Below, piece by piece: positions 1 to 48,428 of a stretch of 64,000 nt of DNA (its first letter is position 1; each line of letters begins with the position of its first letter). Under the pieces are notes generated by a model. It was not told the origin of the DNA and searched no databases. It saw nothing but the letters and a program-made list of their open reading frames with translations. The position numbers and the translations under genes are program-made. The DNA is from Phoronis australis (Eukaryota; Animalia; Phoronida), in the NCBI GenBank assembly GCA_002633005.1, contig NMRA01000740.1:107872-171871 (forward strand), read 5' to 3'.

Positions 1-201
1 AATAGGCAATTAGTAAGTGTTCTTGGTAAAGATGATTTACATTGAAATGCATACTATTTTTGTTGATTCTTTGCAAAAGCTACTCACAATATTTTGAAAA
101 ATGCTTGAAGCTGCGAAAAGAGGAGGAAATATTCTCGTACAAAACGTGAAACATTAGGTCATGAGAATGATGATGATAAACCCTTTATTGTTGATCCTCA
201 C

Positions 202-1384
202 TTTCAACCACAATTACTGCACTTGATCCCATCCGTCCTTGACTACTGACTGGAGGAACACCTCCTCGTGTCCTCCAGTCAAAGGACGAAGGTAATGGTG
301 AAGGAACAGCACTGGGACATGAGCCTTGCTGATACCTCGATTCCACCAAATGATCTAACCTTGTCTTTGGGATCTCTGTCATGACCTGCAACAATAAATT
401 CAAATATTAAATTCTCATTTAGGGCACAATACAAGGAACAAGTGGTATTGATTTTCATCTTTTTTATAAAAATGATTAATTTATAGCACCAAATAAGTGC
501 TTCATCATTTTTAAGTAGTGTACCATAGCCACTTTCAATGTTTTGAGAAATTGTTGGTATTTACAATATATATAAATGTCTTTGAAAAATGAAAAATAAT
601 CAAATTTGGAAATTATTTCTGTCTAAATTTGACAAGGTTTTACCGTGAGTGTACGTGACCTGATCATTGAATTGGTGACTGTGTTATAATTTTCTCTCTC
701 AATCGTTTACACCGCCAATTAGTCAAAGGTGACCATACATCTCTCAGTGTGAAAGTGCTCTCCTGGTTCAACCCTGTACTCGGTTCAGGTCACTTGGTCA
801 AACTTCTGACAGCGGCTTTAGTCAGGATTAAAGAACATGTGTCGTTGGCTTCATGCCGTATAGGGATACCGGTAGCTGTGGCCAGAGTGAACTTCACAGT
901 TCACAGCATATATGTATTTTCAACATTCACACATCCATTGGAAAGTGAAATTTAATCGGGGGGCATCCTTAACTAGCTTCCTATGAGTCAATGCTAATAA
1001 AACCGGTGCCAGTGTTCTCAATAAGGTACATTTTAATTTAAAATTTAAATTTAATTGTGTGCAATATCAGTGACGTTGCGGTAGGAGGTGGTGCATGGAC
1101 ATTCGTACTCAATTTTGTACCTTATCAGCAAACGCGTTAAGGTCAAGCTTGAAGGTGGTGTCAGGTCGAGCATTGTACTCTTTGATCAACATCCGATTTT
1201 TCACCCAAATCGCTCGTCTCATTTCTTCTTCCTCTGCTGTATACGTTTTGCCATACCGAGCTTTCCAATCTTTCCAACTGATAAGTGTTTTACTTTTCAC
1301 ATATTCCTGGTTATCCAATGCGTTGCAACTAAAAATTGCTGTTAGACACAACGATATAAGAAAAAGATTCTTAGAATTCGACAT
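202..1384 (-). CDS. Papain-family (peptidase C1A, cathepsin L-like) preproprotein, 5' part; probably catalytically inactive; continues off the left edge
   Basis: Exon 1 1384-1121 (GT donor): signal peptide MSNSKNLFLISLCLTAIFSCNA, then an I29 propeptide WKDWKARYGKTY..EEEMRRAIWVKNRMLIKEYN..FKLDLNAFAD (ERFNIN/GNFD-like). Exon 2 385-202: mature-enzyme start LPSSFDWRTRGGVPPVSSQGRMGSS. A possible small further exon lies at ~110-88. Confidence 0.85.
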
Positions 1385-1751
1385 ATTTTTACCCAAAATA
1401 AAACACAGCACACTAACTACTTGGCACACACTTTTCAATGAGCGTCAGCATGTGACATTTCGTGTTTACTTCCTGAACTTGTATGACCAACTGGGATCAC
1501 ATGACTTTTGGATTATTCTAAACATCGGACGCATGAGGTAAGTTAAGTTCATGGTAAACGTGTGTACGGGATACATGGTAAAGTATTTTGTGGAGTTACG
1601 CATGATTTAAATTTTATGTATATGATATGAAACATCTTTTCTCCTATTTTATAAATTTCTGTTTGTAAATATGTTCTGGGCCTGAAATGTTGACGCCTTG
1701 TTTACGTTCTACACCCCTCCTGTACGGGCATATTATTGCGACCTGGAAAAC
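1385..1751. promoter_or_regulatory. Bidirectional promoter between the C1A peptidase-like gene (-) and KIAA0930 (+)
   Basis: The two ATGs (1384 on -, 1752 on +) are 367 bp apart. Contains an M-box/CLEAR-like GATCACATGAC (1495-1505), a second CATGTG E-box (~1449), an ETS-like ACTTCCTG (~1468) and an AACATGGC YY1/Kozak-like context at the + ATG. Confidence 0.6.
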
Positions 1752-17424
<15,673 letters not shown>

Positions 17425-22200: not shown

Positions 22201-23337
22201 ATCGCATTGTCGCTGTTGTCTCTAAAACCTGATAACTCATTTGTAATTCAAAGTAAAGATTACACTTTTTTATTGTTAATGATTAATAATGTTAATATCA
22301 AATTGTAACAGTTAGAAAGCGAACTCATTGTAACATTTGATTGCAGAGCCGCATGAGCCTCACAAAACATGGAGTAACTTTATCAAGAAAGTCTTACACT
22401 AAAACACATGTACAATGATTTACACAGATCTGCTAGCTGAGTGACCAGGATTGCAGAAGTGGAGGTGCCTGGGCTTACATCAACAACTAAATGAAAATGC
22501 TTTGCTCCTCACGCGTTAAGTTCGTGATAATCTCAAACATTTTAATTCATAACACTGTCCTGACCAAATACATGTAAGCTATATGTCATAGAAGGCCTAA
22601 GCATTGATATAAACCTACTCGGGTTTCATAATTAAACACCTGTAGGATACCATGACTGTCTTCAGAAATGTTAGGTAAGCTAATAGGTTTCAGAATTAAT
22701 ACTAAAATTCTTGTACCCAGGAACAAAACCACTTTTTTACCAAAATAAAGGTCTGTTTTGAAAGTTTGTCATTTCTAAAAAAAGAGTCTGCAGAAACATA
22801 CGATGTGTACGAACGTCCACGTTGCCAGCAGATGAGGCTTCACTTGTTTGTCACTTGACAAGTAACGCGCCTCTTTTCAGAATACTTGCATGGTAGACAT
22901 GAGTGAGCTGCAGTCACTCGTCTCCAGTTACACTATCAATCAGACCAATACTGCGCCAAGGACTTGTCTGCTGCAAATGTAAAAGCATTGATTTGTTGCT
23001 TCACAATAGTTTGTTATGATGCCTAAGGTTAGTTTTGGGATTGTGGTGGAAAAAAATAAAACAAACTAAAAAAATTCACCAATTTGGGACAAAACTAATT
23101 GCCATATTTGACCTTTTTTCATTTTACATGGTGGCAAGTGTAAACTAAAGTTTTCGAAATTTTGTGTGGTGGTGGATATCATATGAAATTTGAACAAAAT
23201 AAACTATTAATGTGGTGGAAAAATATTTTCTATGAAAAGAATGAGAAAACTAAATTTCAGCTGTTGGCCATATTGTGTAGTTCTACTAAAAATTGGTGAG
23301 ATTTTGCTGTAATTTATTTTTAGACAATATTTTTACT

Positions 23338-23352
23338 GCCACTAGATGGCAC
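23338..23352 (+). promoter_or_regulatory. CTCF-like motif GCCACTAGATGGCAC
   Basis: Matches the CCAC/GYAGRKGGCRS CTCF core consensus. Confidence 0.45.
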
Positions 23353-23912
23353 GTTATGTTTCATGATACACAGTGGTTGGCAATGCGGCATTACTAATAT
23401 CGTCTATAAATTTGGCTCGTTGAAAATGACACCATTTACACTATTTTCACAAATTGAGAATGAAGAAAGATTTTCATCAATCAAGACATCAGTAAGTAAA
23501 TAGGAACGTTTCATAAATTTTTGTTTTTACTGACAATTCAAAAAAGGAAGTCTAATGCCATTCGACTGTGGCAGCCATTTTGTTAGAGCACTACCAAAAA
23601 TTACTTTGAAGATTACATAGTTCAGGTTATTTTGAAAGCACTTGATTACGTGTTGAAAGAGCATATTGTAACTTGGGAATAAGTTTAAAACTAGATTGAT
23701 TTGAGGTCTAAGTTTTTTCACTCGAAAGTGAAAGTATCTTTTAAAGGTCACTTGACATTTTTGCATTTGCTATTTACAACTTAAAATACCACACAGCGCT
23801 AGGTGAAGCCAAAACCACAAACTTTCAACTGGTGAATCGTGCAATGGAGTATCTTCCAATCACAGCAATTATACAAGTGAACTTCATTGGGTCACGCCGG
23901 GTTACCACTACA

Positions 23913-24103
23913 CATGCGCGCCCCAGCGGGGGGGCTCAGAGAAACAAAAAGTCCCAGAAAACGAGACAAAGTCCACCAAAAAGGCGCAGACACACAGTTC
24001 ACAAGATGGTACCCCGTTTTTTTAGTCCTGATGCCTTTTTCGTCAACAAAAGGTACACATCATCAAAAATTCGAGCCCCCCCCCCACCCCAGGTGCATGC
24101 ATG
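23913..24103. mobile_element. MITE with CATGCGCGC..GCATG termini and 5-bp TSD CTACA
   Basis: TSD CTACA at 23908-23912 and 24104-24108; internal sequence homologous to 55235-55432. Confidence 0.85.
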
Positions 24104-24233
24104 CTACAGAGGCAACTCGCTATAGGGTTCCCACAAAACGTGCCTAAACAATGGTTTACATAAGACAAATTTCACAAAAAAAAACACTTCAGACACATGA
24201 ACAGAACCACCAAAAACAAAATTAAAATAAGAG

Positions 24234-27200
24234 TTAATTATCTTTAATAATGATTGAACCTAGACATCGTACCAGTAAAGACTGTTGTGAGTCCTCGCTC
24301 TCTGTTATCTCCAGTAGTTGTGAAGGTACTACGTGGTCATTGTTACCCTCTATGGACGTGTTGTGGACAGTGGCCACTCTGGCCTTGGTGAGGGACGCTT
24401 GCGACAGCTATAAAATTAATGTAACAACCATTACAGGAATTGACCACTGAATCTGCTCCTTCATTTATTTTTGCAACAATAGTTAATAAGGGAAACAGTA
24501 ATTTACATTTCATCAGATGACTGTTTTTTTTGTTAAAACACCTAATTAGAATTGTTTCTTGGGTTTTGTATATAAAATTAATTCATGTTAGGTGTAACAC
24601 CTATCAATGATATTGATCTGCCTAGTTGTAATCTGTCACAAAAATAAGAGGGTATTATATCATCTCAAGTCCTTGCAATACTCCAGATATTTTAAATTAA
24701 TGCAAAAAAGGAAAAACTATTAAGAAGGTCACGCTTGAATGATGCTTGTCAGAGTGCATGGAATGTGCTGGGAGAGGGGCTTCAAGGGTGAGATTGCTTG
24801 AATTTTTTTGGACACAACTTATTAATTGCATGTACATTACACCCCACTCACCCAAGTCACCAGCAGACAGCTCCATCATTACCACCCTTTGTGTTTCCAG
24901 TGCAATAAACCTAATCTGTTTGAAGTAATTACAAGCCCAGTAGGTACTACCTAACAAAGGTTTATGTATACTCATGGGGCATGTCTTTAAGAAATAAAGC
25001 TTGACTTGCTGCTTGGCTTGGGTAAAGCTCCTCGCCGCCTAAGGCTAGTCTTGGTGTGGCAATCTGTACATGTTACAGTCACTCATGGCATGAAGAACAT
25101 TTTGTTTCCGTTTAAATTTGTTAATTAGATGACACTTTAGAATTGTACGTCAGGTGCTGCTGCATGTAATTAATACATTAATCCTGTTACCATTGGTGAA
25201 TCGTCTGTACACATAGGACCTTTCTCATCATCAGGAATCCATGAAGAGGTCTCTTGACTACCACCTGTTTGCACCTGGTGATGAATAAGTATATATGACA
25301 GTGCACGGGTATATGAAAACAAACTGCTTTATTTGGTTTTACTTCAGTTAAGAATTTGCTGACAGTGGGGCAATCCTACAGGTGTCCTATTCAGTTCCAC
25401 CTGGCCTAGACTCCACAAAGCCTGTTCTCCTACTTTTAATACAGAAAAATCAAGTCAATCATATTGTGGATTAGGCACCACATATTTCAAAATAACTTAT
25501 GACAGCTAATGGTAAAAAGTCTGCCAACAAGCTGTTAAGGTCAAACTTTGGACTGACTGTGACCTCATTGCAATTCATTTTAACTAAGAATACTGAATCA
25601 CATTTCACAGTCCAAGAAGAAACATATTGCGTGGCTATATAACTTATAGCAAACTGCAGGATTTTGTGATGCATTTCAGGTTTTGTCTACTAGCTGAACG
25701 CTCCCTCTAAACATGTCACTCACCTGCACATACTTAGCCAAGTATTGTCTGATGTCAAGTGACTGCTCACGCTCTTCACTGTTGCTTGGCAACAAACCCA
25801 ACCCATCAGATCCTTGATCAGTTTCCTCTATCGGTTCCTGCTTGATGACAATGCCACCTGTTGCCTCCTGGTCCCCCTGCAGAAGTCCTTGTATGGCCTC
25901 CAGTGCATAAGGACGTGTGTCTGCAATAGATGAGAACTGAACCATGTCTGGAAGTTGGTACTAGGTAAAGATGCTTCTTAACACTAGAATTTCCAGAATA
26001 GTCAGACACTACCAAGCTGATGTACAATAAAATGGAGTGTGTAAGAAGACTGACAAGTATCATGGCATGAAATGAATTAATTAGCATCTATGTGAATTCG
26101 TACCTACGTTTACATAAAACGCATTATTCACACAGTTTATTCAGGTTAAATGTCCATAAATCTGGTCCAACTCACCTTTCAAAATTATTATCAGTAGTTT
26201 TGGTTCAATCAGTCATGGGAGAATAAATATTTCAAATGCTTGCAATTTGTAACCAAGTATTGAACAATATCTTGTCAAATTTCTCGAGAACTAGAAATTG
26301 TACCCCTACACATTAGCAGAAGATACGCCAGCCAAGAACCATTTTATCTAAAATCCACCAGTGATGCAGTACCTTCTTCGGATAGAAACGTCTCATCAAT
26401 AGGAGACAGGCATACATCTTTTAAGTCATCACTCAGTCCATCACTGCTTTGGGAGCTTTCCACCAGTGCCATTGTAACCATGGTTTTCCTCTGATCGACA
26501 GGTAAGTCCTCCCACATCTCCTTGATCACTGTGGTAACCTTGGGGTCATCCATGTCAGCCTCAGACAGGTATTGCCTCAACTGATTGGCCACTTGACGAT
26601 AGAAGTAATAGTACCTGAATGCATGAGAAATATTAACTGAATTATCCAATTTAACAGCATTTCATAAAACATTGTGCATTAAGTACTAGATGCCTTGCTC
26701 GTTATTTACTGGACAGGTGTCACTCAGCCACTATTTAATGCACAGTGGGAAATCATAAACACAAGGGTAGCAAAATAACATTTATTTTAATTTTCAGAAA
26801 AAAATATGGAAATTAGCAAATCTGTGTGTTACAGGTTCACGATTTACTGTAAATAATAAGACCGGCAAGTGCAGTTTACTTTCAGTGTCGGGACGTCATT
26901 TTTCTGTAGGGGGAAGTGTGTAATGCGAGTCATTATTCACATTATGATCTTCCTTGTGAAGATATTTGTTGGCTATAGTCATTGATAGGCAAATGCATGC
27001 GGGTTCTCTGGAGATCTTGTGGTTTGATTCAGTGTTTTATTAGAGTTTGTGAAGTTTGGCTGTGTGGTTGATATGTCGTACAATATATGATTAAACTGCA
27101 GTCGCTGCTCTTGTAAGTGAACCCGTGACACATTGCTTAGCATGCGTTGCATTCAAAGAAAAGATACTAATACAACTTAAGTCGCAGTTTCTCTCTACAA

Positions 27201-28182
27201 GAGAGCAATTCAATATGAAAAATCTCATCACGGAGTCAGGTTTATCATATATAAAAGAGCATAACATAAATTTATCCTAATATTTCATAGTCAATTTTAC
27301 CCATCAAAATGCTTGTCATCCGAGTGGCTTACGTCAGCAAGTGGAGGTAAGTGGTCACTAACAATGTCACGGTCTGGGTAACTTCTGTAACAACAACTAT
27401 TACATTTGGAAGATTTGAAAAACACCAGTACAACGGACTATTGCAGAAATAGTGCAAGAAGAGGTTATCAGATGCATTTGCCAACTCACTGTTCTGTAAA
27501 ATAGAAAAATTAACTTCCCTATTATAAAGGTTGTATTAGATATTATGTCTTTTCTCTCAGAGCTCCTGCATGGTAAGATTGAGATACAACGAGGTTAGGG
27601 ACAGTACTGCTTGCATGACCTATAATATCCCACTCACTCATTAGTGCATTCTAATGTTTAGTCCAACAAGATGAAGGAACAGCACCGCATGCATGCACCA
27701 TGGGTGTGGCCATGGGCTGCTCAGCACAACTTGTTCACGCACGGTGTTGCTTTTCTTGCGCAAGTAGCTGCATCACGGAAAATTATCCTTACTCAATTTC
27801 AGAAGCCAAACAATTGGAAAAATCACAGGCTATTTTAGCCTGACTGTTTTATTGCTGTGAAATTAAGCCATCAGTAACGCAATGATAGCTTTACTTCACA
27901 CACTTAAGGACTTCGGATATTTAGAAACCCCGATAAACAGGCCTCTTTACGAAAGCACAAATTAGCTGGTACACCCTTTTAAAATGCTCAATACATTAAC
28001 CTCTGTGTTGTACTAATCTGAGGAACAATTGTAATATTCAAGAATAGTAATATTACTAAGTGATATAGTAACAGACCTAGGAACACACACTAATCACTAA
28101 AGCCTCACACATTTCACACTATACACCCACCTCTCCAGTTTCCGTCTACATCTAGATATTCCTTTACTGAACATCCCAGATG

Positions 28183-28240
<58 letters not shown>

Positions 28241-31200
28241 GATGATGACGGCCTTCTTACGAGCACCACTTGATACTTTACGACTGAAAGGAAAATTTGA
28301 CGAACTTAGTGGAATTTAAGGTAAGCATTTACCTAAGAAAACTAATGAGAATTGTGGTTTTCACATACAAAATTGATGTAGCTTTAACACCATAAGATAA
28401 ATACATTTTAGATTAACAATAACATCATCAATTTTTGAGGTCTGTCTCAAACATACATATGAAATAAAATAAAATAATTTTTTGTCATGTTGCTAACACC
28501 ATTAATTTGCTATCCAAAGTGCACCTTTCTTTTTTTGCTAAGTTTTACTAAAAGACGTGGTCATTTGACCCAAATAATGGCAGACTGGAAAAAGTAAACA
28601 AAATCTACAGCTTTCAACTTAAAAAATTTTACTCGGATAAAATGTATAGTTTTGTAGATATTTGGCAAAATAGTTGTCACTAAGATTCTAGGTAAAACAT
28701 TTTAGAACATTTTACAAATAAATCCTAAGAGCATTTTGGACAACACTGCATAAAGCAGTAATATGTGAAAGTTTTGCATGTGATTTTTTGAAGTTAGCCA
28801 AATTTAAACATTTTTTAAGACGTGTGAATTTGGGTGGCAGACATTGCAAAGTGCAGTTATTTTTATGAAATATAAAGTTAGAATCTTTAAATAATATGGA
28901 GCGGAGCTTCTTTCATGCCCCACACATTATGCACCTTGGCACACACAGGTAATTCAAAACTGGTTATACAATCACCATATTTCCTCATCTTCATCGCTTA
29001 GGTCCAAGTGTTCAAACGATTCCTTACACAACAGGCTGTCAACAGCAACATCATCATTACTGAAATCAGCCGTTTCCTAGGAAAAAAATCACTAATTAGT
29101 TTCATTTAAATAGTTCAATAAATTGTAGTGCCTGAGGAAAGTGTTTGTGATTCATTTAAATTTCATCGCCTCACTGCATATAAATATACAATATTTGGAA
29201 ATTCAAAGGTTTCTGAGTGTGTGTTCAGTTGCAGAAAGGATCATTAACCTTAAGTGCCATACACTGAGTGAAGTTAAGCAAGCACTAAAGTAGCACTTAG
29301 AGTTTGTGACTTAAAAAAATATGACAGCCCCAGAAATCACTTTCACATTATATCCAGGTTGTCATTCACTGACCCTTGCATACATACACTCAAAGAACGA
29401 GCTCTGAGGGACTGAATGACAACTGCTTCAGCTCATTTTATGCAGCGAACATTTTTGTGTTCAAGTGCATCATGCACTCAACAAATCACTCATTAATATA
29501 TTTCTGTTGTCAACAAAACCACTAAAATTGTTACAAAAATTACTGACGTGGCTAAGTGTCATTTTTTTGTACATTTCTGGCATCACAATATGGGCAGTGG
29601 ATGGACTTAATGGAGTGACATGGTAGTGAGGGAAGTCTAGGTGAAGGTGAGCAACTAGTCATTGGTGATTCTACATAAACTACCTTTCTTATGATACATC
29701 TGGTTTTCTTGTTTAGATATATAGTAAAAAACGATCGAAACAGAATTTCCACATTTTCATTGCTGTTCTCATTAAAACAGCATCATTGTGCTGTTCATTT
29801 TTAGGGCAAAACCATGAACAAAAATACATACGGGGGGTACTTTTAGTTCAACACACTAGCTCCTGTCCATGTGAAATTGAAGGTTCTTAATCAGACCCAT
29901 TTTAATATTCAGCAGTAATGACTTTTACTTCTTACTAACATCATTTTATTTTGTTGCAGAATTCAATCACCAACAGGTTTTATTTTATTTTATTGATATA
30001 TAAATAAAATACAAAATCCAGTTCAGTACCTTACATTTCCTCTAGAGTGGCATGTCAAATACCTTTAGTTTTATCATAAAAGAGGTTCGTTTTGTCATGT
30101 GACAAGTTACAAAGTTTTCCCCAACAGCAAAACTAAAAAAATGTTCCTTCTTTTTCTTGTTGGAGACAAATTGATTTTAAATTTAGCTTAGAAATCTTTG
30201 AGTAACCAGCAAGTACAATCTCTTGAGTGGGAAAATAACCGTACTCTCCTGCTGTCAACACTAACACAGGAGTCCGGCTCATTGACTGTAAACATCTGAT
30301 CCACCCAGACTTCTCAAAATTACATTATGCCCATGTTCAGCCGTCCACCTCTGATTTTTGACTTAATCGACTTCAGCATTGCTGGAGTTAATCTGGACAA
30401 GTATATTATAAATAACTGCAGATGAAAACTTCATTTGAAAGAGGCAATAAAACATGAAACAAGTGGTTGCTCAACGGCACCTGAATACTTACTTCATTGG
30501 ACAAATCTTCAAATCGCGGAAACAATTTCCATGGACTGGATAATTTGATAGGAGTGAAACCACCACTCTGAAAAAAGTAAAAGCCTTGATTCTTCCCAGG
30601 CACCACTGAAACAACTATTTCATCCATTTAGATGAATGATCTTTCACCAATGCAGTATGTCTGGCAAAACATTAGGACAGACTCAAATTATAGCACTCTC
30701 CAAATCATTACATACAGTGTGATGTGCAGTGGCTTACAAACTATTTCATGAGCACTTAGTCACCGTCAGTAATGATAACTATAGTGAGTTGTTCGGAGGG
30801 GAAAGTTAATCGCCCAAAATTGCACTTGCAATTATGACCAAGACTTCGCTCGTGTTTTAAAACCGAAATTGTTCACCCGTATTCATGACCGAGACTTCGC
30901 TCAAAACCATTGTATCCAATAAAAAATTGATTTATATGTCGCAAGCTCTGAAGCAGTAGTACGCTTGAACTTTATACTGTCTTGTATTTTTGTGCATGTT
31001 ATGAATTGCTCAGAAGATAAAATCTCAGGTGCAAAGTAAATAATTACAAAACATTGAAAAATATCAAAGACATATTTTTGACTTGCTGCCCAGTAGCCAC
31101 AGCCATCCCAGGCATTTGAAAATGATCCGTTTCAGTACATACTGAGGTGCCAGAATGTATATCAATCAGGTTGTGGTGGAATCTACCGGGTAGTTTCATT

Positions 31201-34200
31201 CTCTTACTCTTGCGTGTATATAATATATGGCATTGCATAGAACATAGATATGAAACGGTTCTCTAGGGGGTAATGTAGTAGAATTTATAAACATTGGTGG
31301 TAAATCACTCATTGTTGTTTTGCTCACAATGTACCTTTTGTTTTATTGTACTAAATAGACATGGTTCCGTGACCCAATTGATGGCATACTGGTACAAAGT
31401 CAAAAATCGAATTCTTCAGACTTTCTGGTTTAAAGAAAATAATATGTGCCTCTAGAATGTCAAATTTTATAGTTATTTAGACATTCAGTTAAAAATAAAG
31501 CTGGCTTATTAAGTCTCACGTAAATTTAAAGTTATGTGAAATGTTATAGCCAAGTCCAGCAATCTATAAACCATTACTAAGACTCGGTAAAACTAAAAGT
31601 AGATATTTCTTCAAAATATAAAGTTTGGAAAATGTGATTTTCGACTTTACCAATATACAATTAAGTAACAGGTTCATGTGACCATATCTTTTAGTAAAAT
31701 AACACAAATAAAAAGTACATTATTTACAGCAAACCAATGGAATCAATTGTATAGATGAAAAATTTCTGAAAAAATGTTCAAGATGAAATCTAACAACCTT
31801 CGTTAAAATAAGTCTTCTAAATAATCATTTTATTTCGATTTTATAGGCCTAATAAATATTCTTCATAAAATCTCAAAAGCAATGTTATTTGATAGCCCTT
31901 AATGCAAACATAAGCAATCTGAGAACAATTCCTGGCACAGATTTGAAGAACAGTGCATAAGCACAGTATCTGGAACTTTCGTTTGAACTTGACCGGCCAT
32001 TTCCGGGCAATGTTGCAAAGTTAGCCACACTAAAATTTGAAATTTTTTGGGGTGCGTCTCACGTCACCCTTAGGCAACCCTTACCTTCCTTAGCAGGGTT
32101 CCATGTCTCGATTCATCTTATACAAGTGCTTAATTTTCGTCCATTAAACTATTCATATTCGAAACCCTTGCTCACAATTTTTTTTCATGCATATGAACAT
32201 AATGCTCGCACATTTGTAGCCAAGCGACTTATTTCAAAAACCTCTTTTCATGGAGTTGGATGTTACTCCAACCACCATGAAATTGTTGGCCCTTCATCAT
32301 AACAATGGGATAAAATTAAAGAATAAATAAAATACCAACTAATTATTACTAATTAATCTTCCAACAACAAAATGAAGCCTGACCTGTGACTTGGCTGGTG
32401 TAGAGAATTCCTTCATCCAATCATCAACAAATCCACTAGAACAGTCTTCCTCTCGAACGGCATATTCAGTGTGATCGCCTGGCGGTACGCCCGTATTGCA
32501 TAGCTTGACTGACTGAATAAAAAGTTGGCACTCCTCATTGGTTGCTAGTCATCGCATTCACATTCAGTTGTTCTAAGCGTGAATCAGCAAAATAGGGGAA
32601 GACGTCGTTTGCAGCAAATCTACCGTCCATTTGTCACATTAACTTTCTCACTTTTTCCTTTTCAGTGAATGTATTAGTCGATGAATCAATAAGTATAGAA
32701 GCTGTTAAACAATTCCATTGTTAAAAATTTCTCTAAGTAAACTTTGAAATATTTATTTTTTAAAAAATTTGTACCAAAGCAGAGATAGTGTGCCCCACGT
32801 CAATGGTGCAAAAGTAATTTTACTGACACACTATGATTGCTTAGCACGGGACAATGGCCTCATTAAAACTGAAAGCAAGAACGAAAAAACTATCATGGCC
32901 CATAGGTCCTCCATTAACTGGCACGAGTCCGTGTGAGTCAATTCATACATGCTCACATTTTTTTCTAAAACAAAGTAACCAGCTCATACGTATACTGTAT
33001 GTTGTATCACGGCTGGGTATGATTTGTTCAATCATGATGCCAGTCAGTGCAGATTCAAACCAAAAAACATTATCCACAAGGTTTTATCGCTTTGATGGTT
33101 AGATAATAGACTCCACAGAGCTAATTGAATTTATCTCTAATTTCACCTTTTGTAGAGCTGATTAATGCAAGAAAACTACTGTTGATGGGTGAAAACAAAA
33201 TTTATTCACTAATCGAAAGCTGATTACTACAATAACTATATCTAAAACACATGCTACAAGTCAAAAAACATAATGATTAATCTACCTTATCTCACTATGA
33301 ACAAGCTCTTGATTCACGTAAACAGATGAATAATAATTATACCTCCTCACAAGTTGTGCATGTTTCAAAGGCTTGCGGCTGCGAAGAGACAGACTCATCA
33401 GCAGAGTTTCCCCCTACAACTGTCTCTACTTTGAAGGGAAAGGCCTGAACTGTTGAAGAGTCACTCAACACATACTGTCTACCATCAGCTGGCACGTTGT
33501 AGTAGCCCCATCCCTCATTATCGACATAAACTGGTTCAACTGCAGTAGAAACAAGCGGGCCGCAGATGTACGTCTTTCTGGCTTTTCTTATCTCTTGGGA
33601 GCTAGATTTAGTCCGGCCTTGTAACTTACTGCAAGCATACAAAAAGTTATAAACAGTACTTTGGAATTAGTTGGAGGTTTCAGTTTAGGATTTGAAACAT
33701 GGATATATTTCATAACAGAACTTGTATGCCTTCACTTATCATGATCAGTGAATATCTGTTAGTAAAGCCCAGGTGGTTCAGTATTCAAAGCCAGCCTCTG
33801 TTACAGCTGACAACATCTGCTGGGCTATTGTGTTCTGGTCATAACAGGGTGATATCTGATGTTATCATGCAGGCTTGGGTAGACCTGATAATTGGATTAC
33901 ATAATCAGAATATATTTCAGTACTCATCATTGGTTGAGGAAATGAACAGGTTCTGCAATGAAAGAACTCAGTAAGTGATGTTTCTTATTCCAATGCATCG
34001 AGAGACCACTGACCAGCATATTTTCATGAATGAAAGAACTATTTTTCACATTCAGGAGAATTTAGTATGTAACCATGGAAAAATGTCAGTGGTGGTGCAT
34101 CTCATTTGCGTATCTTTGGTGATGCAAGATTCATGACTGCAATGCATGCACAGACTAAAAATGACATGAAAATATCAAGCCACTGCTTAAAAGCCTTAAA

Positions 34201-36553
34201 GGACATGCTGCTCTTGTGGCTATAGAGTTAGAAAACTTGGTTATTGCAGCTTAAAAGTAAAATCTCACAAATGCCAGAGAGAGAAAAACAATTGCAAAAA
34301 CTGCCTGTTTTCACTTTTCAAGGACTTCTAGCATTTTTGTGAACGCCCAGAATTTTTTAAAACATTGTTTGATGGCAATTGTGGAACAAATCTTGAGCAC
34401 CAAAAAGACAACACGTTTAATTTGGTGCTGCATACGTTGCATGGAAATTGGAGATTATCATACGGTACTTAGGGATCCACATCCGCCTGTTCACATATAT
34501 ATGATACGTCCAAAATCAGCTTAAAGCTAATTCACATACGCCTTTAAAATTAATTTTGAAAATACTCCCTACCATGATAGCAGCAACTTTACGAAATTAA
34601 TAACTAAACTACATTAGTAACTACTACCATGCCTGTAAAGACCATCCTGAGTATTTTCGAGTAAAAATAGCTTCAGAAAATCCACCATCTGGCCCATTTG
34701 CTGCCTACTTGCTCTAGTCAACATGATTTGGTAAAATTTACGCACTTGTTGCGTTTCTCTTGAAGCTGGCACAGAAATGCACTCCTTATATTTTCCAGTG
34801 TCAAGTGACTAGTCTCACCCTCCATTTGGGACGCTACAAGATAACAAGTGAGAACCAACTATAGTTGTTTAAGTCACTACATGTCAGAATTAACATTCAT
34901 TATCACTAAGTGATTATCAAAGGCACTGTTATGTGTGGTTTTACACTTAATAAAATCCAAGCTTATTTTCAAACAATATGCAGCTAAAGAAGGAAAGTGC
35001 CCACAGTTGAATAACTTACCTTTCAACTTCAACAGCCTTCCTACCAAATCTTCCAAATTGCTCAACTGTCTGCTAGTTTCTTCAAGAATCATAGCCTGAA
35101 GAAAATCAACAAGAAATAAAAAGCGAGGAACATGATGCACTCTACAATAAAAACCTTTGTTCACATTTGATGCACCCATGTTTATATTTGAAGCTGTACT
35201 TCCTTTATTCTGTCTTTGCTATGTTATGTACTTTCAAAATAAAAAATCAGCTTTAGTGATGTATTGGTTAACAGTTTTCATCGGTAATCTGTTTTGTCTG
35301 GGTTGTACTATGAGCTGTGTTGTAGAGCAAAAGGCTAGGCATAACTATTAAGTGTTAAGTACAAAAAACACGATTAAAAGATAGATAGACATAAGAACGG
35401 ACAAGGGAGGTAGATAGTTACACTATTTGTTTCCCCGTGTTCCTCTTTAAAATCACTTTAGTATATGTAGACTTAACCATGACCTACAACTTGAGAAAAA
35501 GCAAAGAAAATTGTTTTAGAGTGACTATTTTTTATTAAAAAATATTTAAATTTTCCCAAGAAGTTCATTTTTTTCTTGGAGGCCTTTCTAAAAATGCCGT
35601 CACAGATTTCAAAATCTTCCAACAGACTTATTTAAGTCACCAATAGGTAATCATGATAATGAAGCCATTGTCAAATACTGTTTTCTGTACTTTGTTTTTG
35701 ATATTTGGCAAATACACAACATTCAGTCAAAATTCCCAACTTCATTTCGAAATAACTTATGTTAAAATCAATTTAAAAAATCCCTGGCTTAGATTTGAAG
35801 TTCATTTGTATTAGATTTCAATTTCTTTATGACATAAAAATTGATCAAAAGATAGCTAAGAAATAAACTAGAGCAAATTGTCACTACCTAAAAATAATGA
35901 AATTTGAAAGCGCTTATCTCGCGTAACCTAAGCACCAGAAACACATGAAACCCTCTTGCCTAGATATTCACCCAACAAAGTTTATTTTGACTCTTGCGAA
36001 TGAAGTATGATCCCAATGTAGCTCCTGTATGTGACAGATCAAGCAGGCACCTTAATTTTTTGTTTCTCAATCCCATGATTTTAGATTTCAACTCAGAATG
36101 AGCATGATACTCTGGTGATAGGTATATACTTTTAAGTATAGGACTTTGCAAACAGGACTTTGTTTTTTTTAAACAGAATGGCATTTGAGTGGTTTCACTG
36201 CTTGTCTCAATTGCAAAATGAGTGAGCAAAGACGAGAAACGAATTAACAGTTTTATGAGTAATACAAAGCATTCACAGTGGCAATTAAAAACAGAATGAA
36301 AGTTCAACATTTCCGAGTCTGAATTAAAAAGTAAGCTTTTGAAATTTGTCAAACAACCAATCTCCAGTCAAAATACCTTTGAAGTTTTCTTCTTTCCCGT
36401 CCTGTCTCCTTTCTCTATAATTTGCTTGAGTGTATGGTAACAAGTAGCTATGTTTGCTCTCCACTTGGCATCTGATTGGCGCCGTTTCTGTCTCATGCCA
36501 GGATCTGACGCCGATCGGGACTGAGACCTCGTTTTAATCTCCGACCGTTGCAT
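24234..36553 (-). CDS. STRA8: STRA8-like protein (N-terminal bHLH, acidic/poly-Ser linker, HMG-like STRA8 C-domain), ~568-577 aa
   Basis: Phase-consistent exons on -: 36553-36377, 35095-35020, 34833-34746, 33628-33343, 32512-32384, 29076-28976, 28283-28131, 26614-26373, 25947-25724, 25274-25191, 24407-24234 (or a donor at 24273 to a terminal exon 22486-22475, LLM*). The bHLH block KRRQSDAKWRANIATCYHTLKQII..TSKAMILEETSRQLSNLEDLVGRLLKLKAS..TLENIRSAF resembles recalled STRA8 RRRLSQARHRATL..SKWQVL..LEQTLDNLLKLKAS..SLEEVKKEY. The second block ERYYYFYRQVANQL..PKVTTVIKEMWEDLPVDQRK resembles STRA8 ERYLNFYKQTMDLL..PIVSAAISHLWQNLSEERK. The symbol rests on recalled sequence, not a search. Confidence 0.8.
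28184..28240 (-). repeat. Coding (AGC)n trinucleotide repeat encoding 19 Ser
   Basis: GCT x15, ACT, GCT x3 on +, inside exon 28283-28131. Splice phases fix the Ser frame. Confidence 0.85.
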
Positions 36554-40925: not shown

Positions 40926-43900
40926 ATGGCTGCGCCCAGGTTGATTTCTCTTGATAACGCTAAAGCTCTAGTCGATGCTTTAGACTGCTTTTTGTTGGAT
41001 TGTGATGGTAAGCTAATGTGCCTTCCACTAAATTGGAATGACTTACTAAAGCCTAGGCTGATTTCTTCTGATAACGTTGAGGATTTCGTCGAATTTTCAC
41101 TCGGACCTCCACTGACTGACAGTGACACCGACAGTGACAAGTGACTGGTAATGTATTCCCGTATGTGGCTGACTAAACGGGGCTACAAGTACAATACTCC
41201 TCAGCGGCATCACTTTCTGTACTAGTTTTGTTTCGTGTATTTTGCCAAATCGGCTAACTAAGTAAGACGTTTTCACCTCGTCAAAAATACATTTTACACT
41301 TAAAATTATTACTTTAAAAAGCTGTTGTAGATGTGCTTCCGGTGAATTATTTGAACCTCTGTTAGTTACTCGCTAACGGGCAATTGCCTATTAGCTGAAT
41401 GGTTAGCACGCTTGCCAGTTTTATGGGGGTCGCTGATTCGATTCCCGGGTCGGATAATATCGGCTACTACTACAAAGCGCTTACCATGGCTCGACATAAC
41501 GAACTGCAGGTCGCATTTGCGACCTGAAATTTGGAAATGCGAGCTGAGATTTTTGTCAGCTCGTATCAAGTCGCAAAATGCGACTTAGAATTTCCAACGA
41601 ATGCGAGCTGAATTTTTACAATTCCCAACAGATACCTGGCAAATACAAAGCAGCTCTTGTTAATCCGACCATTATTTGGTTGTTGCCAAATCCAAGTTTA
41701 GGCACGTAAAACTGGCGGGAAAATTTTGCGACCTGGCATTTACGAATGCGAGCTGGATTTTGAAAATGCGACCTGGGATTTTGGCTAGGTCGCAAAATGC
41801 GACCTGGCGATTTTAATAGCATCGAGCCCTGATTACTTTCTTCAACAATCCTTTCTAGTTCTAAACATATCTGATGAAGCACGTCTTTGGGAATTAAGAC
41901 GGATAATGACTTTTGCAAAGAATTCCAACTCTTTTTTAGTAGCACATTAACCGCAAAATGTTTCAACTGATGTCATATGAGTAATTGGCAAGGAATAGTG
42001 CAAAACTGCACAAAGGACGTATCCATTTGCAAAAATACCATGGGAATATATGAGGTGGAATGTGTAAGATTTGTGTCCCTTGGACTTTTTGTTCATCAAT
42101 GGGCACGTCATTTCTGTAACTTCCTAAATAACACCTGGTGAGGGAATGTCAAGCTGAGCGCAACAGATTTTCACAGATGTTCAAATTATGTTGACTAAAT
42201 TGTCTAATGTGTCATGGTGTGTTTTAATTATGACTCCATTTTTCACTTAATTTAATTCGCTATATATTCTGAGATGGGAGTAAATTTATATGGGTTTGTA
42301 ACTATCACCCCTCTATATCTGTGACAATACAGACCAATATCCCAATTTAAGCCACTATATATAAAGTGGTTGTGCTGCCTCGCCTTGGCGTGGCTGCCAA
42401 TTGAATCTCAGGAGCGTAAACCCTGATTACCCCAAGCTTTCTTATTAAAGTTATAAGACATGGAATTGTGTCCCTGTGATGTTTAAGAGCCATCAATCTG
42501 CTGAGAAATTTTCAATCTGCTGCCCATGAATGCTTGATGACTCAATGTTGATTAATAAGGTAGCAGTTGCAACACCTGTCAGGTATTGCTTAATAATATA
42601 ACTGATGCCTAATGTATTCTCTCTGCAGGTTGAGCAGAGACTCCTCTTTTGGCTCTGTGCTATTATTAGTGTTTGTATATATCTGTACACAGTTCCGTTT
42701 GTGATAAACCAGCTCTTGTGCAAAAGTTAACTTCATTTTATCCAAAACCTGACTTTAAATAAAATTTCCTTTACTTTTTGCTGCTTTTTTGTTGTATGGT
42801 GATGCAGTGTGAATGAGACAGTACCGATGCGCTAATACTTACTGAAGCCGCAACACAGACATGGCTAAAATTCTGATTTTCCGGCCAAAATTTTGTGCAC
42901 GTTATTCCTGAAAACAAATTGTGATCTTTGGTTCAGGCATAAAAAATTCCCCAAAACCCTCTACGGAACTTATGCTGGACTCTTACATGCACAGCTAGCC
43001 GAAAGGAGTCTTTAGAGAATAGCATACCCAAGTTCTGTGCTATTTAAAAGCTTTCGAAACGTAAATTTAAAAATAATTTTGTCGCCCCCAGTGTGTTTAT
43101 GGTGGGTCCGATTATCTGAAAGCCCATTGACTTACTCAGGTCTGAGCGTAGCGTTGATGTATACAGCGAAGTTAACTGGGCCGTTCGTACTGGCTTTGGT
43201 AATTAATGAACATCGAAGTAAATGGTAGGTGATGCAGTCGTCATTGAAATTATCACAAGGTATCGCTGCACTCTAAGATTTTTTCAATGTAACAATTTGG
43301 GAACATTTACATGTGCTGATTGACGTAAAACTTATTTTAAATCGATTGGTGGTTACATAGAGAAAAATACAAGCAACTATTAGCAAAGGCACCACCGTGT
43401 AATTGTTGGCGATAACAGTGGCACGTGGCGATAACTTTGATAGGACCGAAGTTGACTGTTCATACTGCACTGCAGCGTCAACGCTCCGCTTTCAAATCCA
43501 TCTGTTAGTGCTAAGTTAACTGGCGCTGTTAATTTCGATCCAGAACCAAAGTTAAGCGTTCATACTTACTGCAACTCCCCAAAACATCGACACTTCAACT
43601 TTAGTATAATGAAAGGCCCTAAAAGCACGATAGCAGCCTGTGGCATCCATAGGCAATGCAATTACATTGCCTATGACTCCAACTGTTTTGATTTCTGGTC
43701 TCTCCCCCTCACAATGCATTTTGATGTGTACCTGTACAGTCTCTTCTCTACCTGTGTCGCTTGTTTTGTGTTTGTAACTGTTTTCTTGAGAATGGTTTAA
43801 TGAAATAAACCAAAGTGTTGGATTGGATAGATATGTCGTTACTTACTTAGACGCTAATTTTAAAGTTCGTGCTTCTGTTCTGGCCTAAATCAGATGTGAT

Positions 43901-46900
43901 CGACTGCATAGTGTCCTTGGCCATTGCAGCAGCTTTCGAGGTAGCAAACTGGCCGAGTTGCCCAATCTCAACCAGTGAGGGTGTCAAAGTAAGATTCTTT
44001 TCATGAAAGCTTTAAAATATAGCTGTCCATCAGGAGTGTTGGAAACTGACACTTCATTTACTCTAATGCTTACTGGGAATTTACGAACATAGGCTCATGG
44101 GCAGATATTCGAAAAACAATCTTTTTAGAAACCTCGAACAAAACCGAATATACCCCCGTTCGTATGTTTAGAAAGGGGGGGGCTTATTTTAGGAAATTGT
44201 GTGTCAACATTTTACTATGCAGTTTTTGTTTAACACTTACAATTAGTTAATATAGTGGCCATGATTGTAATGGCTGGGAATCACCAGATCTGATTTTATC
44301 TTGCACAGTTCAAGACGAAAGTAATTAGACAAGCTACCGTTACCCCTATCATGACAGCTGACCCTGTTAACACAAACACGACAGGTAATAATGGTAAGCA
44401 TGACAAACTTCTAATTGCAGAAAGTCTTGGCCACCTTGCTAACTTTTCTGTTCAATTCGTCTTCAATTCTTGGACATGAAGAATTAAGATTACTCTGATA
44501 TTCAATTCAGCTTCCGCCCAGCCGTCATGACCGGGCATTCCGGGTCATTTTGTCTGGCAAATTCTTTTGGCTTGTACTGCAGTAACTGTTGTGATATGTG
44601 TGTTCTAGGCGTCCTTTGGCATTCATCCAAGACCATAGATGGCGCTGTGGAAACTGTAAAGAAACTGAAACAAAAGGTTTGTATCAAGTGCAGTTGTATT
44701 ATTAGTATGCAGTTATCATTATCATTTTAATATTACTATGATTACGTCTGTTGTTCCATGTTTAGAGGTTACCTGTACTTTTCTCGCAAAGTGGCACGGT
44801 ATGAAGAGGAGCTGATGATCGTCTTCTGCATGGGCAATTCTTAATAAACAAGTTTTAATGCCTTTCCAAACCACAATTACCTGGTCCTCTTGGTTGATTC
44901 CTTCACAGGATCAGATAAAGTACTCAGTAGTCTCCGTCGACAAACAGTGAACAGTTAATCACCCTATTTGGTGTTGGAACATGGGATGTCATGACAATGA
45001 TAGAATTTTCAGTGATAGTGCAGGAAGTAATGGCTTTAAGCTGCTACAAACCTCCTTCTATTATAAACAACTTTTGAGTTAAATCACTGACAGTGTTGTG
45101 AAATTGATTCTCATGTCAGTACTCACCCAAATTAGTTATGGGCTTGAATAGAACTGACATTTCTTTATTGTCTGGTAACAGGCTTGATCAGTTGAGTTGT
45201 CATGGCAACTCATTTTATGCACTCTGACCTCAAGCTTTAGCTACTGACAATATTTCTTTCCAAGCCCAGAAAACACTTCTCGTCTCACTAACTTTAAGGA
45301 AAATTTAAGTCCAGGGCTGAGCTCTTTTGAGGCTTCTTTTGTGTGAATTTGACAAGATTAGACAAGTCTTCAAGAATTATGGCCATGTATTTCTAGTGAA
45401 GCATACACTGAAGTATATTTATTTCTCTCATAAATACAGAATGGGCTTTAGCTTTATAGTGCTAAGTTGTTTTTAAATCAAAAATGTGTTTCTTTATGGA
45501 ATATGGAATCATAGCAGCTTTAGTGGGCCATAATTGATCTTATGGCCAAAAACTGCATTTTTGTAATTGTTTGTGGTAGGGATCAACTTCTTGAACCAAT
45601 TGACTTTGACCAGAACTATAAAATGACAATACTGAAGTGACCGTGACCAATCGAGATGCCCCCTATTGGGTTTGCCATGAATCAATCGCCACTTACATAC
45701 CAATCATCGTTGTTGTCAGCCATCAGTTTGCTGAAGTGAAGGCCAATGACTAACAGTTAAATACAAATTAGTCTTAAAATCCTCTTCCGTTTACCGAGTG
45801 AGGCTTAGCTCAGCCAACATAGTGATGGACTGCCACAGCTGAGATAGTGAGTTCGATTTCGTTTTGGGGCCTAATCTCATAAAACTACATTTATCGCCAA
45901 TAATGTCATTTAAACAGCAATGACGACTGTCACATTTGATACTGTCTTTTATACCACAATATTAGCCTCGAATGGCAGATACAACTGTGTAGTAACCCAT
46001 AAAGTTATCTCACTAGTGAGATAACATTTTGGCGGGAAACCGAGGCCGGAGTCGAACCCGGGCCTCGGGCGTTGCTGGTCGCCGACTTCACCACTCAGCG
46101 GCTGATGTCATCAAGAGTGAAAATAGAATACTTAAATGAGCACGCGCAATAATCCCATGTACAACAAACTGCATTGCACTGACACAAATGTGAAAAACAA
46201 AACGCACAATTTCAATGAAAAACGACTTAATTCAGTAAAATTTAAAAAACAAATAAGTAACTTGTGAAGTAAGTTATACGACGTGTAGATACTTGAGAAA
46301 TGTAATAGAAATGAATCTAAATGTGCAAAACAAGAAGTAGGTCATATCAGTTCAAAATATTGTCTTCGCAGCTATTATTAGCAACAGCTAGTCGACATCT
46401 TCCTCGTGTTTTCTCTTTTCGGAGCTCTGACTTGATTTATTGTGATGTTGAATGTGTCACCGGTGATTGTTGAGTTTCCAAATACAGACGACAACCCTAA
46501 TGAGGCAGAGGAGGTGCGGGAAATTGAGATGTTACTGGAGGATGATGCACGTTCGCACCCTGTAAGTAAGGAGCATTAACGCCTCTGCTCGGTAATGTCT
46601 GCTGTATGGTAGTTGTTCAGGTTCTGTATATTCCTGTGTCCTGACAGCTGCTTCACGGTGGTTCGGGGCACTCCGGACTTGAGTAACATGGAACATGTTG
46701 TCTTTCTGACGCTGTGGTTTTTTTACGGCCAGCTATTCCAGCTGGCTCGCACATCCGCGGAACCATTTTGGCTAGAGTGTTTACACCAATCGGCTGCAAC
46801 GTGAACCAAGGCTGATCAGATGAAGGCCTACACTGCTTGGGTTTAAGATAAAATGGGCTGTCTGCGAGCATCATAATCTCTGGTCTCACTGCTTTGTATT

Positions 46901-48391
46901 TCTTATACGCAGCTGCTGGGCAGTGGGGTTGGTTTTCTTCCAACGCAAATTGCTTTGGTTTAAATGATCTGGTTAATGACCCATCTGATCTTGTTTTGGT
47001 TGCCCATTCATTGAACTCGATGTATTCTCCTTCCGTTGAACTGTGCAATGTGATATCGCCCCACTGGAGATTTCTATTCTCATCGTTTCCACAAAATCCT
47101 AACAGGAGAGTTTTATTCAACCACACCAAGTTGAGTAAAGCAGTTGGACTGTGCAGTCCAATTACTCCCCTGGCCCATAGAATTTCCTGATCATTGACAG
47201 TAAGCTCCTCTGCTTTATAACTTTTGTTGCCCTTTCCTTGAGCTTTCAGGTCTTTTCGCTTTGCTTGCAGCACTGCTCTTGATCCACTAAACACTTGATC
47301 ACTTAAAATCGAAAACTTGGAATCATTTTCTCGCAGAAAACGATCAATAGGTCTGTGAAAACTTAAAAGAGTGTCTGGCTCATACTTCGATCTGTCTCTC
47401 TTTTTTACTTCAAGAAAGAAACAGCTCAAATAAGCATCCAGCTCTTCTTTTGATAGCTCAAGGATGTGTCTCTTCTCAGCTTGTCTTGTCGCTGCCAGCC
47501 AGGTGTTGAATGTTTCCACGTCGTATTTTGTTTTTCTTACGGTGTTTGAATTTTTCTTCGATTCGACAAAGTCCTTAACGTCTCTAGCGTTAAACTTTTC
47601 ACGGTATCTGTCATTTTCTTCAAATTTGAGTTCATTGATTTCCAATTTAAATGTCGGTAGCTTGTCATCTGGAATCCTAGACATATTGTAACCAGGTAAC
47701 CTACTGTACTATAGCAGACGATATTTTGACGATAGACGCTTAGCATAAAATGTGTAGTAAGCTAGTCAGTTTGTTTAAAACTTGTTTTATAGGTTCACCT
47801 TATTTCTATTTTGTTTAAATTTTCAGTTGGTTTTGAGTAAAAACATTGCTTTAGCAAGAAATGACTCGGCGTTTCTTAAGAGGTCATGACCTCCGACCCC
47901 TTGTCTCTGACATGGAAAGCAATTCCATAGCCGAGGCGAGTCGAGAAAGGTAGATCGATTCATTGCAATGTTTGTCGTTTAGTATGTGGTATAAATAGAT
48001 TATTACATGTTCTCAGCCGTTATCCCCCTTATCTAGAGCCCTTGTGGGTTTTGGACAATAATTGTCCAAAATCCACAAGGGCTCTAGATAAGGGGATAAT
48101 GACTTCACCATGTAATAATCTATATTTATCTTTATCATTGCAGGGTAAGAAAGTGTTCTATGTAACGAACAACAACAGTAAAACTCAAGAAGAATGTCTC
48201 GTGAAATGTCTCCAGCTGGGATTTCCTGCTGAGAAGGTACATGTAACACCACCTGTAGGAAATGTCTATGAACGATTAACACTTTTAGTTCAAATAGAAA
48301 TAACCAAAACATAGTTTTTTCTCTTTTTAGAATTTATTCAAGAAAATACGCAATTACATTAAGAAATAACAAATATATGCTCACACACACG

Positions 48392-48428
<37 letters not shown>

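What the first reader, a model, noticed from the sequence alone, without database searches (positions are those of the whole stretch)
24234..36553. STRA8-like meiotic-initiation factor in an apparently non-vertebrate genome
Seen: 11 exons splice in consistent phase to ~570 aa, with a bHLH ending ..LEDLVGRLLKLKAS..TLENIRSAF and a later block ERYYYFYRQ..L..P.V...I..MW..L...QRK. Established: these are the two conserved blocks of vertebrate STRA8, the retinoic-acid-induced partner of MEIOSIN, which is usually described as vertebrate-restricted. Inference: the repeat content (Crypton, 5-bp-TSD MITEs) and gene divergence suggest an invertebrate. If so, a STRA8-type switch predates vertebrates. The ORF track shows only disconnected fragments. 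Automated 'STRA8 homolog' labels may already exist for some invertebrates, so novelty needs checking.
Basis: partly seen in the sequence, partly recalled or inferred. Interest (0 to 1): 0.85.

Follow-up and report, generated by a model that had tools for sequence, protein, structure and literature searches.

The report
Invertebrate STRA8-like meiosis-entry gene
A real, spliced and transcribed gene in a probable invertebrate belongs to a family of snail, clam and worm proteins that is likely the counterpart of STRA8, the vertebrate switch into meiosis, which would make that switch far older than vertebrates, though its role in meiosis is untested.

Summary
RNA reads show 14 coding exons and 627 aa, not 11 and ~570; the cited 'ERYYYF' match comes from skipping an exon. 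The protein has a bHLH, an acidic stretch with an LxCxE motif and an HMG-like box. It belongs to LHLH2/LmorHLH, published in 2017 as 'Lophotrochozoan only' with no mention of STRA8. Evidence that this family is STRA8: the Lottia member passes Pfam bHLH_STRA8; its nearest predicted structures are two chordate STRA8 clusters; LxCxE, STRA8's RB-binding motif, is aligned in 25 of 28 sequences; the oyster member peaks in testis. Against: no vertebrate STRA8 or MEIOSIN sequence was obtained, so no tree; LxCxE precedes the HMG box; single window exons miss the Pfam model; no retinoic-acid element. 'Predates vertebrates' is already in print for amphioxus. What seems new is extension to protostomes. 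The scan earlier noted sea-urchin MEIOSIN-like genes on other DNA (untested here). Host lineage undetermined.

The parts
36377..36553 (-). Exon 1 (coding part): start codon, basic region and helix 1 of the bHLH (bHLH about aa 22-84)
   Evidence: joint 35094-36376, 50 and 18 reads; weak HLH match, 12.9 bits, below cut-off
35020..35095 (-). Exon 2: helix 2 of the bHLH, 76 nt, phases 0 and 1
   Evidence: an exon at the same position with the same phases in metagenome loci L001-L003 (read)
34746..34833 (-). Exon 3: conserved helix after the bHLH (aa 95-112)
   Evidence: the homologous Lottia stretch lies inside the part aligned to STRA8 models
33343..33628 (-). Exon 4: poorly conserved linker; read-through past its donor stops after one codon (possible 210-aa bHLH-only isoform)
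32384..32512 (-). Exon 5: linker
   Evidence: joint 32512-33343; its downstream joint is not listed
30493..30567 (-). Exon 6: conserved GFTP(I/V)K motif (aa 255-260), a likely proline-directed kinase site
   Evidence: joint 29075-30492; motif in homologues; kinase role inferred
28976..29076 (-). Exon 7: acidic stretch holding the LxCxE motif (aa 292-296, bases 29034-29020)
28131..28283 (-). Exon 8: poly-Ser from a trinucleotide repeat, then the conserved CRRKLE motif (aa 356-361), a likely cyclin-docking RxL site
   Evidence: docking role inferred from recalled RxL motifs
27301..27384 (-).
   Evidence: joints 27384-28131 and 26611-27298
26373..26614 (-). Exon 10: HMG-like box (about aa 387-443) and the conserved LSDDL motif
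25724..25920 (-). Exon 11: acidic tail
   Evidence: joints 25920-26373 and 25271-25721
25191..25274 (-).
   Evidence: joints 25271-25721 and 24407-25191
24273..24407 (-).
   Evidence: joint 22970-24273, 9 and 13 reads
22274..22970 (-). Exon 14: last 18 codons, stop ending at 22914, 3' UTR; end uncertain (AATAAA at 22274)
   Evidence: reads cover to the edge of the laid stretch at 22500
33201..33206 (-). AATAAA in intron 4, 136 nt after the donor: candidate early polyadenylation signal
   Evidence: 9 reads in each of X1 and X2 at 33317 inside the intron

Best explanation
This is a transcribed 14-exon member of the invertebrate LHLH2/LmorHLH family, which is likely the orthologue of vertebrate STRA8 and would act as a germ-cell transcription factor that helps switch cells from mitosis into meiosis. 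Shown: the gene structure, family membership, a bHLH, an HMG-like fold (predicted model), and a conserved LxCxE. Inferred from mouse STRA8: the bHLH pairs with a MEIOSIN-type partner rather than binding E-boxes alone, since Asp and Trp stand where canonical bHLHs have the DNA-contacting Glu and Arg. The LxCxE would bind RB-family pocket proteins and free E2F for pre-meiotic S phase. The conserved TP and RxL motifs would put it under cyclin-CDK control. Induction by retinoic acid is not assumed. Odds: about 0.75 for STRA8 orthology, about 0.55 for orthology plus a role at meiotic entry.
For: Family: profile of 27 homologues (window left out) scores the spliced protein at 219 bits, E 9e-69; BLASTP with Lottia E 2e-31 over both domains; the Lottia protein is LgLHLH2. 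STRA8 link: Lottia scores 27.3 bits on Pfam bHLH_STRA8, cut-off 25; 26 of 30 alignment members match it at E<=1, and the only other bHLH subfamily model listed matched 2; the two nearest predicted structures to Lottia aa 14-113 are chordate STRA8 clusters (TM 0.77 and 0.71 over 88-89 residues; other rows 0.61-0.66 over 71-78). LxCxE lies in one aligned column in 25 of 28 sequences, against 2.1 expected to hold it anywhere after shuffling. Mouse STRA8 binds RB through LxCxE (PMC10600341), and the motif is listed for STRA8 and not for MEIOSIN (PMC13637641 section 8). The catshark Stra8 reverse primer translates to E-T-F-D near the stop (my reading), like the residues ending the Lottia motif. HMG fold: the first 27 structure matches are all HMG boxes, Z 6.5 (rmsd 5.5, 62 aligned) down to 4.6; HMGB1 E 5e-06 by profile. 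Expression: oyster member 9.06 FPKM in male gonad, 1.17 digestive gland, 0.71 female gonad, under 0.1 in six other organs; the window gene is read in 2 of 3 raw-read libraries (52, 39, 0 reads at 36482). An amphioxus Stra8 shows the gene is pre-vertebrate.
Against: No vertebrate STRA8 or MEIOSIN sequence was retrieved (empty; none named), so no reciprocal search or joint tree. Single window exons do not match bHLH_STRA8. Lottia scores higher on generic HLH (29.5) than on bHLH_STRA8, and Haliotis (18) and Tubulanus (15.1) fall below the cut-off. The Atlas marks its STRA8 rows 'under the bar', both sides are predicted, and its feature search gave only generic HLH and HMG clusters below 0.9. LxCxE lies before the HMG box here but is C-terminal in vertebrates; Tubulanus lacks it, and the 28 sequences are mostly related molluscs. 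HMG Z-scores are under 8, and Foldseek gave nothing at E<=0.001. Oyster members have a degraded HMG region (4-9 identities in 39-46 columns). Bao 2017 describes LmorHLH as expressed in a variety of tissues and stages, with 1.3-3.2 FPKM from egg to gastrula. The tissues of the window's libraries are unknown.
Confidence: 0.55

Rival explanations
1. It is a STRA8 orthologue by descent but does not gate meiosis; it is a cell-cycle-linked factor of dividing germ cells and early embryos, and the meiotic role arose in chordates.
For: Oyster transcripts from egg to gastrula and a 13-fold male over female bias; 'variety of tissues'; RB and cyclin motifs fit any cycling cell.
Against: Male gonad is the clear adult peak, and the digestive-gland signal also appears for gonadal SOHLH1 (6.2 versus 27 FPKM), which suggests gonad carry-over.
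Confidence: 0.2
2. It descends from a single bHLH-plus-HMG ancestor that duplicated in chordates into STRA8 and MEIOSIN (co-orthologue), or it is the MEIOSIN orthologue.
For: Both vertebrate proteins have a bHLH and an HMG domain. A length near 600 aa is closer to MEIOSIN than to the 356-368 aa STRA8 clusters (MEIOSIN length recalled).
Against: LxCxE and the Pfam and structure matches point to STRA8. A preprint names Meiosin in sea anemones (passages only), and two earlier AI notes describe sea-urchin MEIOSIN-like genes (unchecked, and they could be this same family).
Confidence: 0.15
3. LHLH2 is an independent lophotrochozoan family, as published, and its likeness to STRA8 is convergence or the generic similarity of divergent bHLHs.
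For: Bao 2017 lists it as 'Lophotrochozoan only' with support 1; Pfam scores are marginal; the LxCxE position differs.
Against: STRA8 has 0 mentions in that paper's text and supplement, so it appears not to have been compared. bHLH, following helix, HMG-like box and LxCxE would all have to converge.
Confidence: 0.1

Closest known systems
LHLH2 / LmorHLH family (Bao et al. 2017, PMC5381572)
   Same: Same bHLH, with the two introns seen in clam-like loci; same GFTP, LxCxE, CRRxLE and HMG blocks; 219 bits on the family profile.
   Different: The paper used the bHLH only; its text has no mention of HMG or STRA8. The window protein lacks the ~8-residue insertion after helix 2 seen in the 25 mollusc bHLHs and falls outside molluscs in a tree that carries a long-branch warning.
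Vertebrate STRA8 (Pfam PF23175; PMC10600341; PMC13637641)
   Same: bHLH, acidic region, HMG-like domain and LxCxE.
   Different: 627 aa versus 356-368 aa; LxCxE before instead of after the HMG box; acidic stretch is not a long Glu run; no retinoic-acid element found; partner and function untested.
Amphioxus Stra8 (Rodriguez-Mari et al. 2013, PMC3769385)
   Same: An invertebrate STRA8 orthologue called by reciprocal best BLAST hit, E 8e-09.
   Different: A chordate, sequence not seen here, no function tested. I cannot exclude that the window comes from this group.
MEIOSIN / BHMG1
   Same: N-terminal bHLH and C-terminal HMG domain.
   Different: No LxCxE is listed for it; no MEIOSIN-named row appeared; direct comparison was not possible.

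Membership tests
LHLH2/LmorHLH | bHLH sequence of the published family | tested here: met
   28-34 identities in 63 columns to the 26 bHLH-bearing homologues; family profile 219 bits; Lottia protein listed as LgLHLH2
LHLH2/LmorHLH | Shared intron positions in the bHLH | tested here: met
   Phase-0 and phase-1 introns flank the helix-2 exon in the window and in L001-L003 (3 of 4 loci; L004 ends before them)
STRA8 | bHLH matching Pfam bHLH_STRA8 | tested here: inconclusive
   Lottia passes (27.3 > 25); two others seen fall below; single window exons give no match and the spliced window domain could not be scanned
STRA8 | Predicted bHLH-plus-helix structure nearest to STRA8 | tested here: met
   On the Lottia homologue, not the window protein: top two rows are STRA8 clusters, flagged under the tool's naming bar
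STRA8 | HMG-like domain | tested here: met
   Model pLDDT 77.8; first 27 matches are HMG boxes, Z up to 6.5; profile hits HMGB1
STRA8 | LxCxE RB-binding motif present | tested here: met
   aa 292-296; 25 of 28 sequences in one column; binding itself untested
STRA8 | LxCxE at the C-terminus, after the HMG-like domain | tested here: not met
   The only LxCxE precedes the HMG box; hence filed as a likely orthologue and variant, not as a standard STRA8
STRA8 | Glutamate-rich region between bHLH and HMG | tested here: inconclusive
   10 acidic residues in 30 at aa 271-315, the highest of the windows printed, but no long Glu run
STRA8 | Reciprocal best hit or clade with vertebrate STRA8 to the exclusion of MEIOSIN | not testable with these tools
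   No vertebrate sequence obtained
STRA8 | Retinoic-acid induction through DR5/DR2 elements | tested here: inconclusive
   No perfect element in the window; one-mismatch hits 4 (chance 4.2) and 9 (chance 4.5; 7 of 100 shuffles reach it); transcription start unknown
STRA8 | Expression in pre-meiotic germ cells | tested here: inconclusive
   Oyster member is testis-enriched in bulk data; window gene read in 2 of 3 raw-read libraries of unknown tissue
STRA8 | bHLH-mediated dimer with MEIOSIN | not testable with these tools
   No partner sequence and no host genome held
MEIOSIN | N-terminal bHLH plus C-terminal HMG domain | tested here: met
   Architecture shared with STRA8, so it does not discriminate
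MEIOSIN | Groups with MEIOSIN by sequence or tree | not testable with these tools
   No MEIOSIN sequence obtained; no MEIOSIN-named row

The most novel reading that the evidence does not exclude
The last common ancestor of protostomes and deuterostomes already started meiosis with a STRA8-MEIOSIN pair wired to RB through LxCxE. The 'lophotrochozoan-only' LHLH2 family is that STRA8. Vertebrates shortened it, moved the RB motif to the tail and added retinoic-acid control, while hagfish, zebrafish and flies lost it.
Probability: 0.4. Interest if true: 0.8.

Novelty: new variant of a known kind. Interest (0 to 1): 0.55.

Why it matters
A 2026 paper leaves open whether hagfish lost Stra8 or split off before it arose, and calls the MEIOSIN-STRA8 bHLH interaction a derived enhancement (PMC13637641). 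If LHLH2 is STRA8, the gene goes back to the bilaterian ancestor, hagfish lost it, and the RB link is ancient too. It would give a named, testable candidate for meiotic entry in oysters, mussels, snails and annelids, where the proteins retrieved are labelled uncharacterised, hypothetical or by domain only. It would also allow a test of whether retinoic-acid control was a later addition.

Tried and rejected
Word-index searches with single window exons found nothing (weak evidence by the tool's own note). Single exons against the PDB gave no meaningful hit. Two of the 13 hits (P0001, P0007) are repeat proteins and were dropped as spurious. Foldseek on both models gave nothing at E<=0.001. The Atlas feature search of the HMG exon gave only scores under 0.9. 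No RNA holder was listed by index; the runs came by species label. Exact look-up of 10 window ORFs to learn the host lineage found none, so the lineage stays open. A sequence scan of intron 5 for an in-frame extra exon gave one candidate with a poor acceptor (31262-31143), rejected, though intron 5 has no listed RNA joint. The tree used 20 of the 27 full-length homologues (one per genus; partial or duplicate rows left out), has no outgroup and joins two long branches, so it says only 'not nested in molluscs'. No complex prediction was run, as no partner sequence was at hand. Literature: ten searches; one search was swamped and uninformative; some searches listed 30 of 84, 30 of 63 and 25 of 28 papers. 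Passages in PMC12824366, PMC7743902, PMC13012086, PMC13072017, PMC9449974 and PMC7804246 mention STRA8 only as a vertebrate gene or in references or abbreviations. PMC11829761 did not call Stra8 vertebrate-specific in the passages found, so that description is not documented by my calls.
Full report
The observation. Stranded RNA reads from runs X1 and X2 lie on the exons in the direction expected for a minus-strand transcript and correct the model. There are two more exons (27384-27301, 25274-25191), and the supposed last exon is spliced at 24273 to an exon at 22970. The result is 14 coding exons, 627 aa, all introns GT-AG. Twelve of 13 introns are listed joints; intron 5 is inferred, and two listed joints carry the tool's 'between: not known' flag. 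With exon 9 the box begins F-D-G-Y, as in 14 of 27 homologues. Run X3, from the same study and read to similar depth, has almost no depth on the exons (52, 39 and 0 reads at 36482), so expression is sample-restricted; tissues are not given. The contigs of X4 show no listed piece on the exons.

The family. The HMG exon, scored against 1.84 billion representatives, gave 13 hits. Of the 10 looked up, three carry species names: Octopus, Lottia and the nemertean Tubulanus. The Lottia bHLH found 25 proteins, 24 named from gastropods and bivalves and one unnamed; none is named STRA8, and four carry the precomputed Pfam label bHLH_STRA8. A profile of 27 homologues scores the spliced window protein at 219 bits. 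Three of four metagenome loci show the same two bHLH introns. The Lottia protein is LgLHLH2 in the supplement of Bao et al. 2017 (PMC5381572; I read passages, sections 19 and 28 and supplement hits). LHLH2 is called LmorHLH in the text and was counted in 7 of 10 genomes (four molluscs, two annelids, one brachiopod), with none in human or fly, and labelled 'Lophotrochozoan only'. STRA8 has no mention in that text or supplement.

Anatomy. The bHLH spans about aa 22-84 and is followed by a further conserved helix. In the basic region, Asp and Trp, both at least 90% conserved, stand where canonical bHLHs have the E-box-contacting Glu and Arg (register read from the paper's alignment; the contact rule is recalled). 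Then come a GFTP(I/V)K motif, an acidic stretch with LxCxE at aa 292-296, a poly-Ser run, a CRRKLE motif and an HMG-like box at about aa 387-443. The box folds with mean pLDDT 77.8, and its first 27 structural matches are HMG boxes, at modest Z of 6.5 to 4.6. Foldseek found nothing significant.

Why STRA8. [quoted passage not shown] The Lottia bHLH passes the Pfam STRA8 cut-off, and 26 of 30 alignment members match that model at E<=1. The two nearest predicted structures to Lottia aa 14-113 are chordate STRA8 clusters, aligned over the extra helix as well. LxCxE is in one column in 25 of 28 sequences, against 2.1 by shuffling, and a Capitella member shows it too. The oyster member peaks in male gonad at 9.06 FPKM, against 0.71 in female gonad, 1.17 in digestive gland and under 0.1 elsewhere.

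Why not yet proven. I obtained no vertebrate STRA8 or MEIOSIN sequence, so there is no reciprocal test or joint tree. Lottia scores slightly higher on generic HLH, other members fall below the STRA8 cut-off, and single window exons do not match it. The Atlas flags its STRA8 rows as under its naming bar. LxCxE lies before the HMG box instead of at the tail and is absent from Tubulanus. Oyster members have a degraded HMG region, and the oyster gene is also expressed from egg to gastrula. No perfect DR5 or DR2 element lies in the window. Mollusc retinoic-acid receptors are reported not to respond to retinoic acid (recalled, not checked).

Mechanism. Most likely the protein dimerises through its bHLH with a MEIOSIN-type partner, docks RB-family proteins through LxCxE to release E2F for pre-meiotic S phase, and is timed by cyclin-CDK through its TP and RxL motifs. 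Every step of this is inferred from mouse STRA8 or from recalled motif rules. Only the motifs and their conservation are shown.

Host. Probably an invertebrate and probably not a mollusc: it lacks the mollusc insertion after helix 2 and falls outside molluscs in an unrooted tree with a long-branch warning. The neighbouring PGP-like gene is in at least four separate coding pieces, whereas vertebrate PGP has two exons (recalled). No genome is held, and the lineage was not determined. The evolutionary claim does not rest on it, because the family members come from named molluscs, annelids, a brachiopod and a nemertean.

Novelty. That STRA8 predates vertebrates is in print: an amphioxus orthologue by reciprocal BLAST (PMC3769385, passages). 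The family is in print under another name. In ten searches of the held library I found no paper that equates LHLH2/LmorHLH with STRA8, reports a protostome STRA8 or notes its LxCxE. The library lacks most subscription papers and some lists were cut. Supplementary Fig. 1 of PMC10600341 was too large to read, and Fig. S2 of PMC13637641 gave only its legend; both could bear on the comparison. PMC13637641 (outline, passages, sections 8 and 39, part of the supplement) sampled vertebrates only and leaves the timing of Stra8's origin open. A preprint names Meiosin in sea anemones without Stra8 (10.1101/2025.09.17.676462, passages). Two earlier AI notes of this scan describe sea-urchin MEIOSIN-like genes; I could not check whether they are the partner family or this one.

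Verdict. A real gene with a corrected structure, a firm member of LHLH2/LmorHLH, and a likely STRA8 orthologue (about 0.75) with a rearranged RB motif. New variant of a known kind; interest 0.55.

Noticed in passing
window 33342-33201 (minus strand, intron 4): Possible short isoform: 9 reads in each of X1 and X2 cover 33317 inside intron 4, an AATAAA lies 136 nt after the donor, and joint counts fall from 35 and 22 (intron 3) to 14 and 7 (intron 4). It would encode a 210-aa protein with the bHLH but no LxCxE or HMG box. Intron retention or 5' bias are alternatives.
   Followed up: partly
window 28183-28241: A trinucleotide repeat of about 20 copies inside exon 8 encodes a poly-Ser run not seen in the homologues.
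   Followed up: partly
window 46653-47708 (minus strand): Crypton-type ORF with DUF3504 (E 3e-22) and QRICH1 matches, lying between coding pieces of the PGP-like gene on the opposite strand.
   Followed up: partly
window 50009-50649: Three tRNA-like copies about 250-315 bases apart (Rfam; ARAGORN calls two, as Val and Ala), between coding pieces of the PGP-like gene; possibly tRNA-derived repeats.
   Followed up: no
window 188-1444 (minus), 4005-12654 (plus), 40926-53856 (plus): Neighbours: a cathepsin with an I29 propeptide, a DUF2045 (KIAA0930-like) gene and a HAD hydrolase (PGP-like) gene.
   Followed up: partly
window 23935-24081: A repeat in the last intron attracts hundreds of partly fitting reads on both strands in all four runs, so it is a high-copy element.
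   Followed up: no
proteins P0043, P0046, P0047, P0048: Oyster members keep the bHLH, LxCxE and CRRxLE motifs but have a degraded HMG region, a reverse parallel to MEIOSIN losing its bHLH in fish.
   Followed up: partly
proteins P0002, P0003, P0005, P0013: These gene-caller fragments read R-Y where full-length homologues read G-Y, which suggests the same phase-2 intron at the start of the HMG box in other animals.
   Followed up: no
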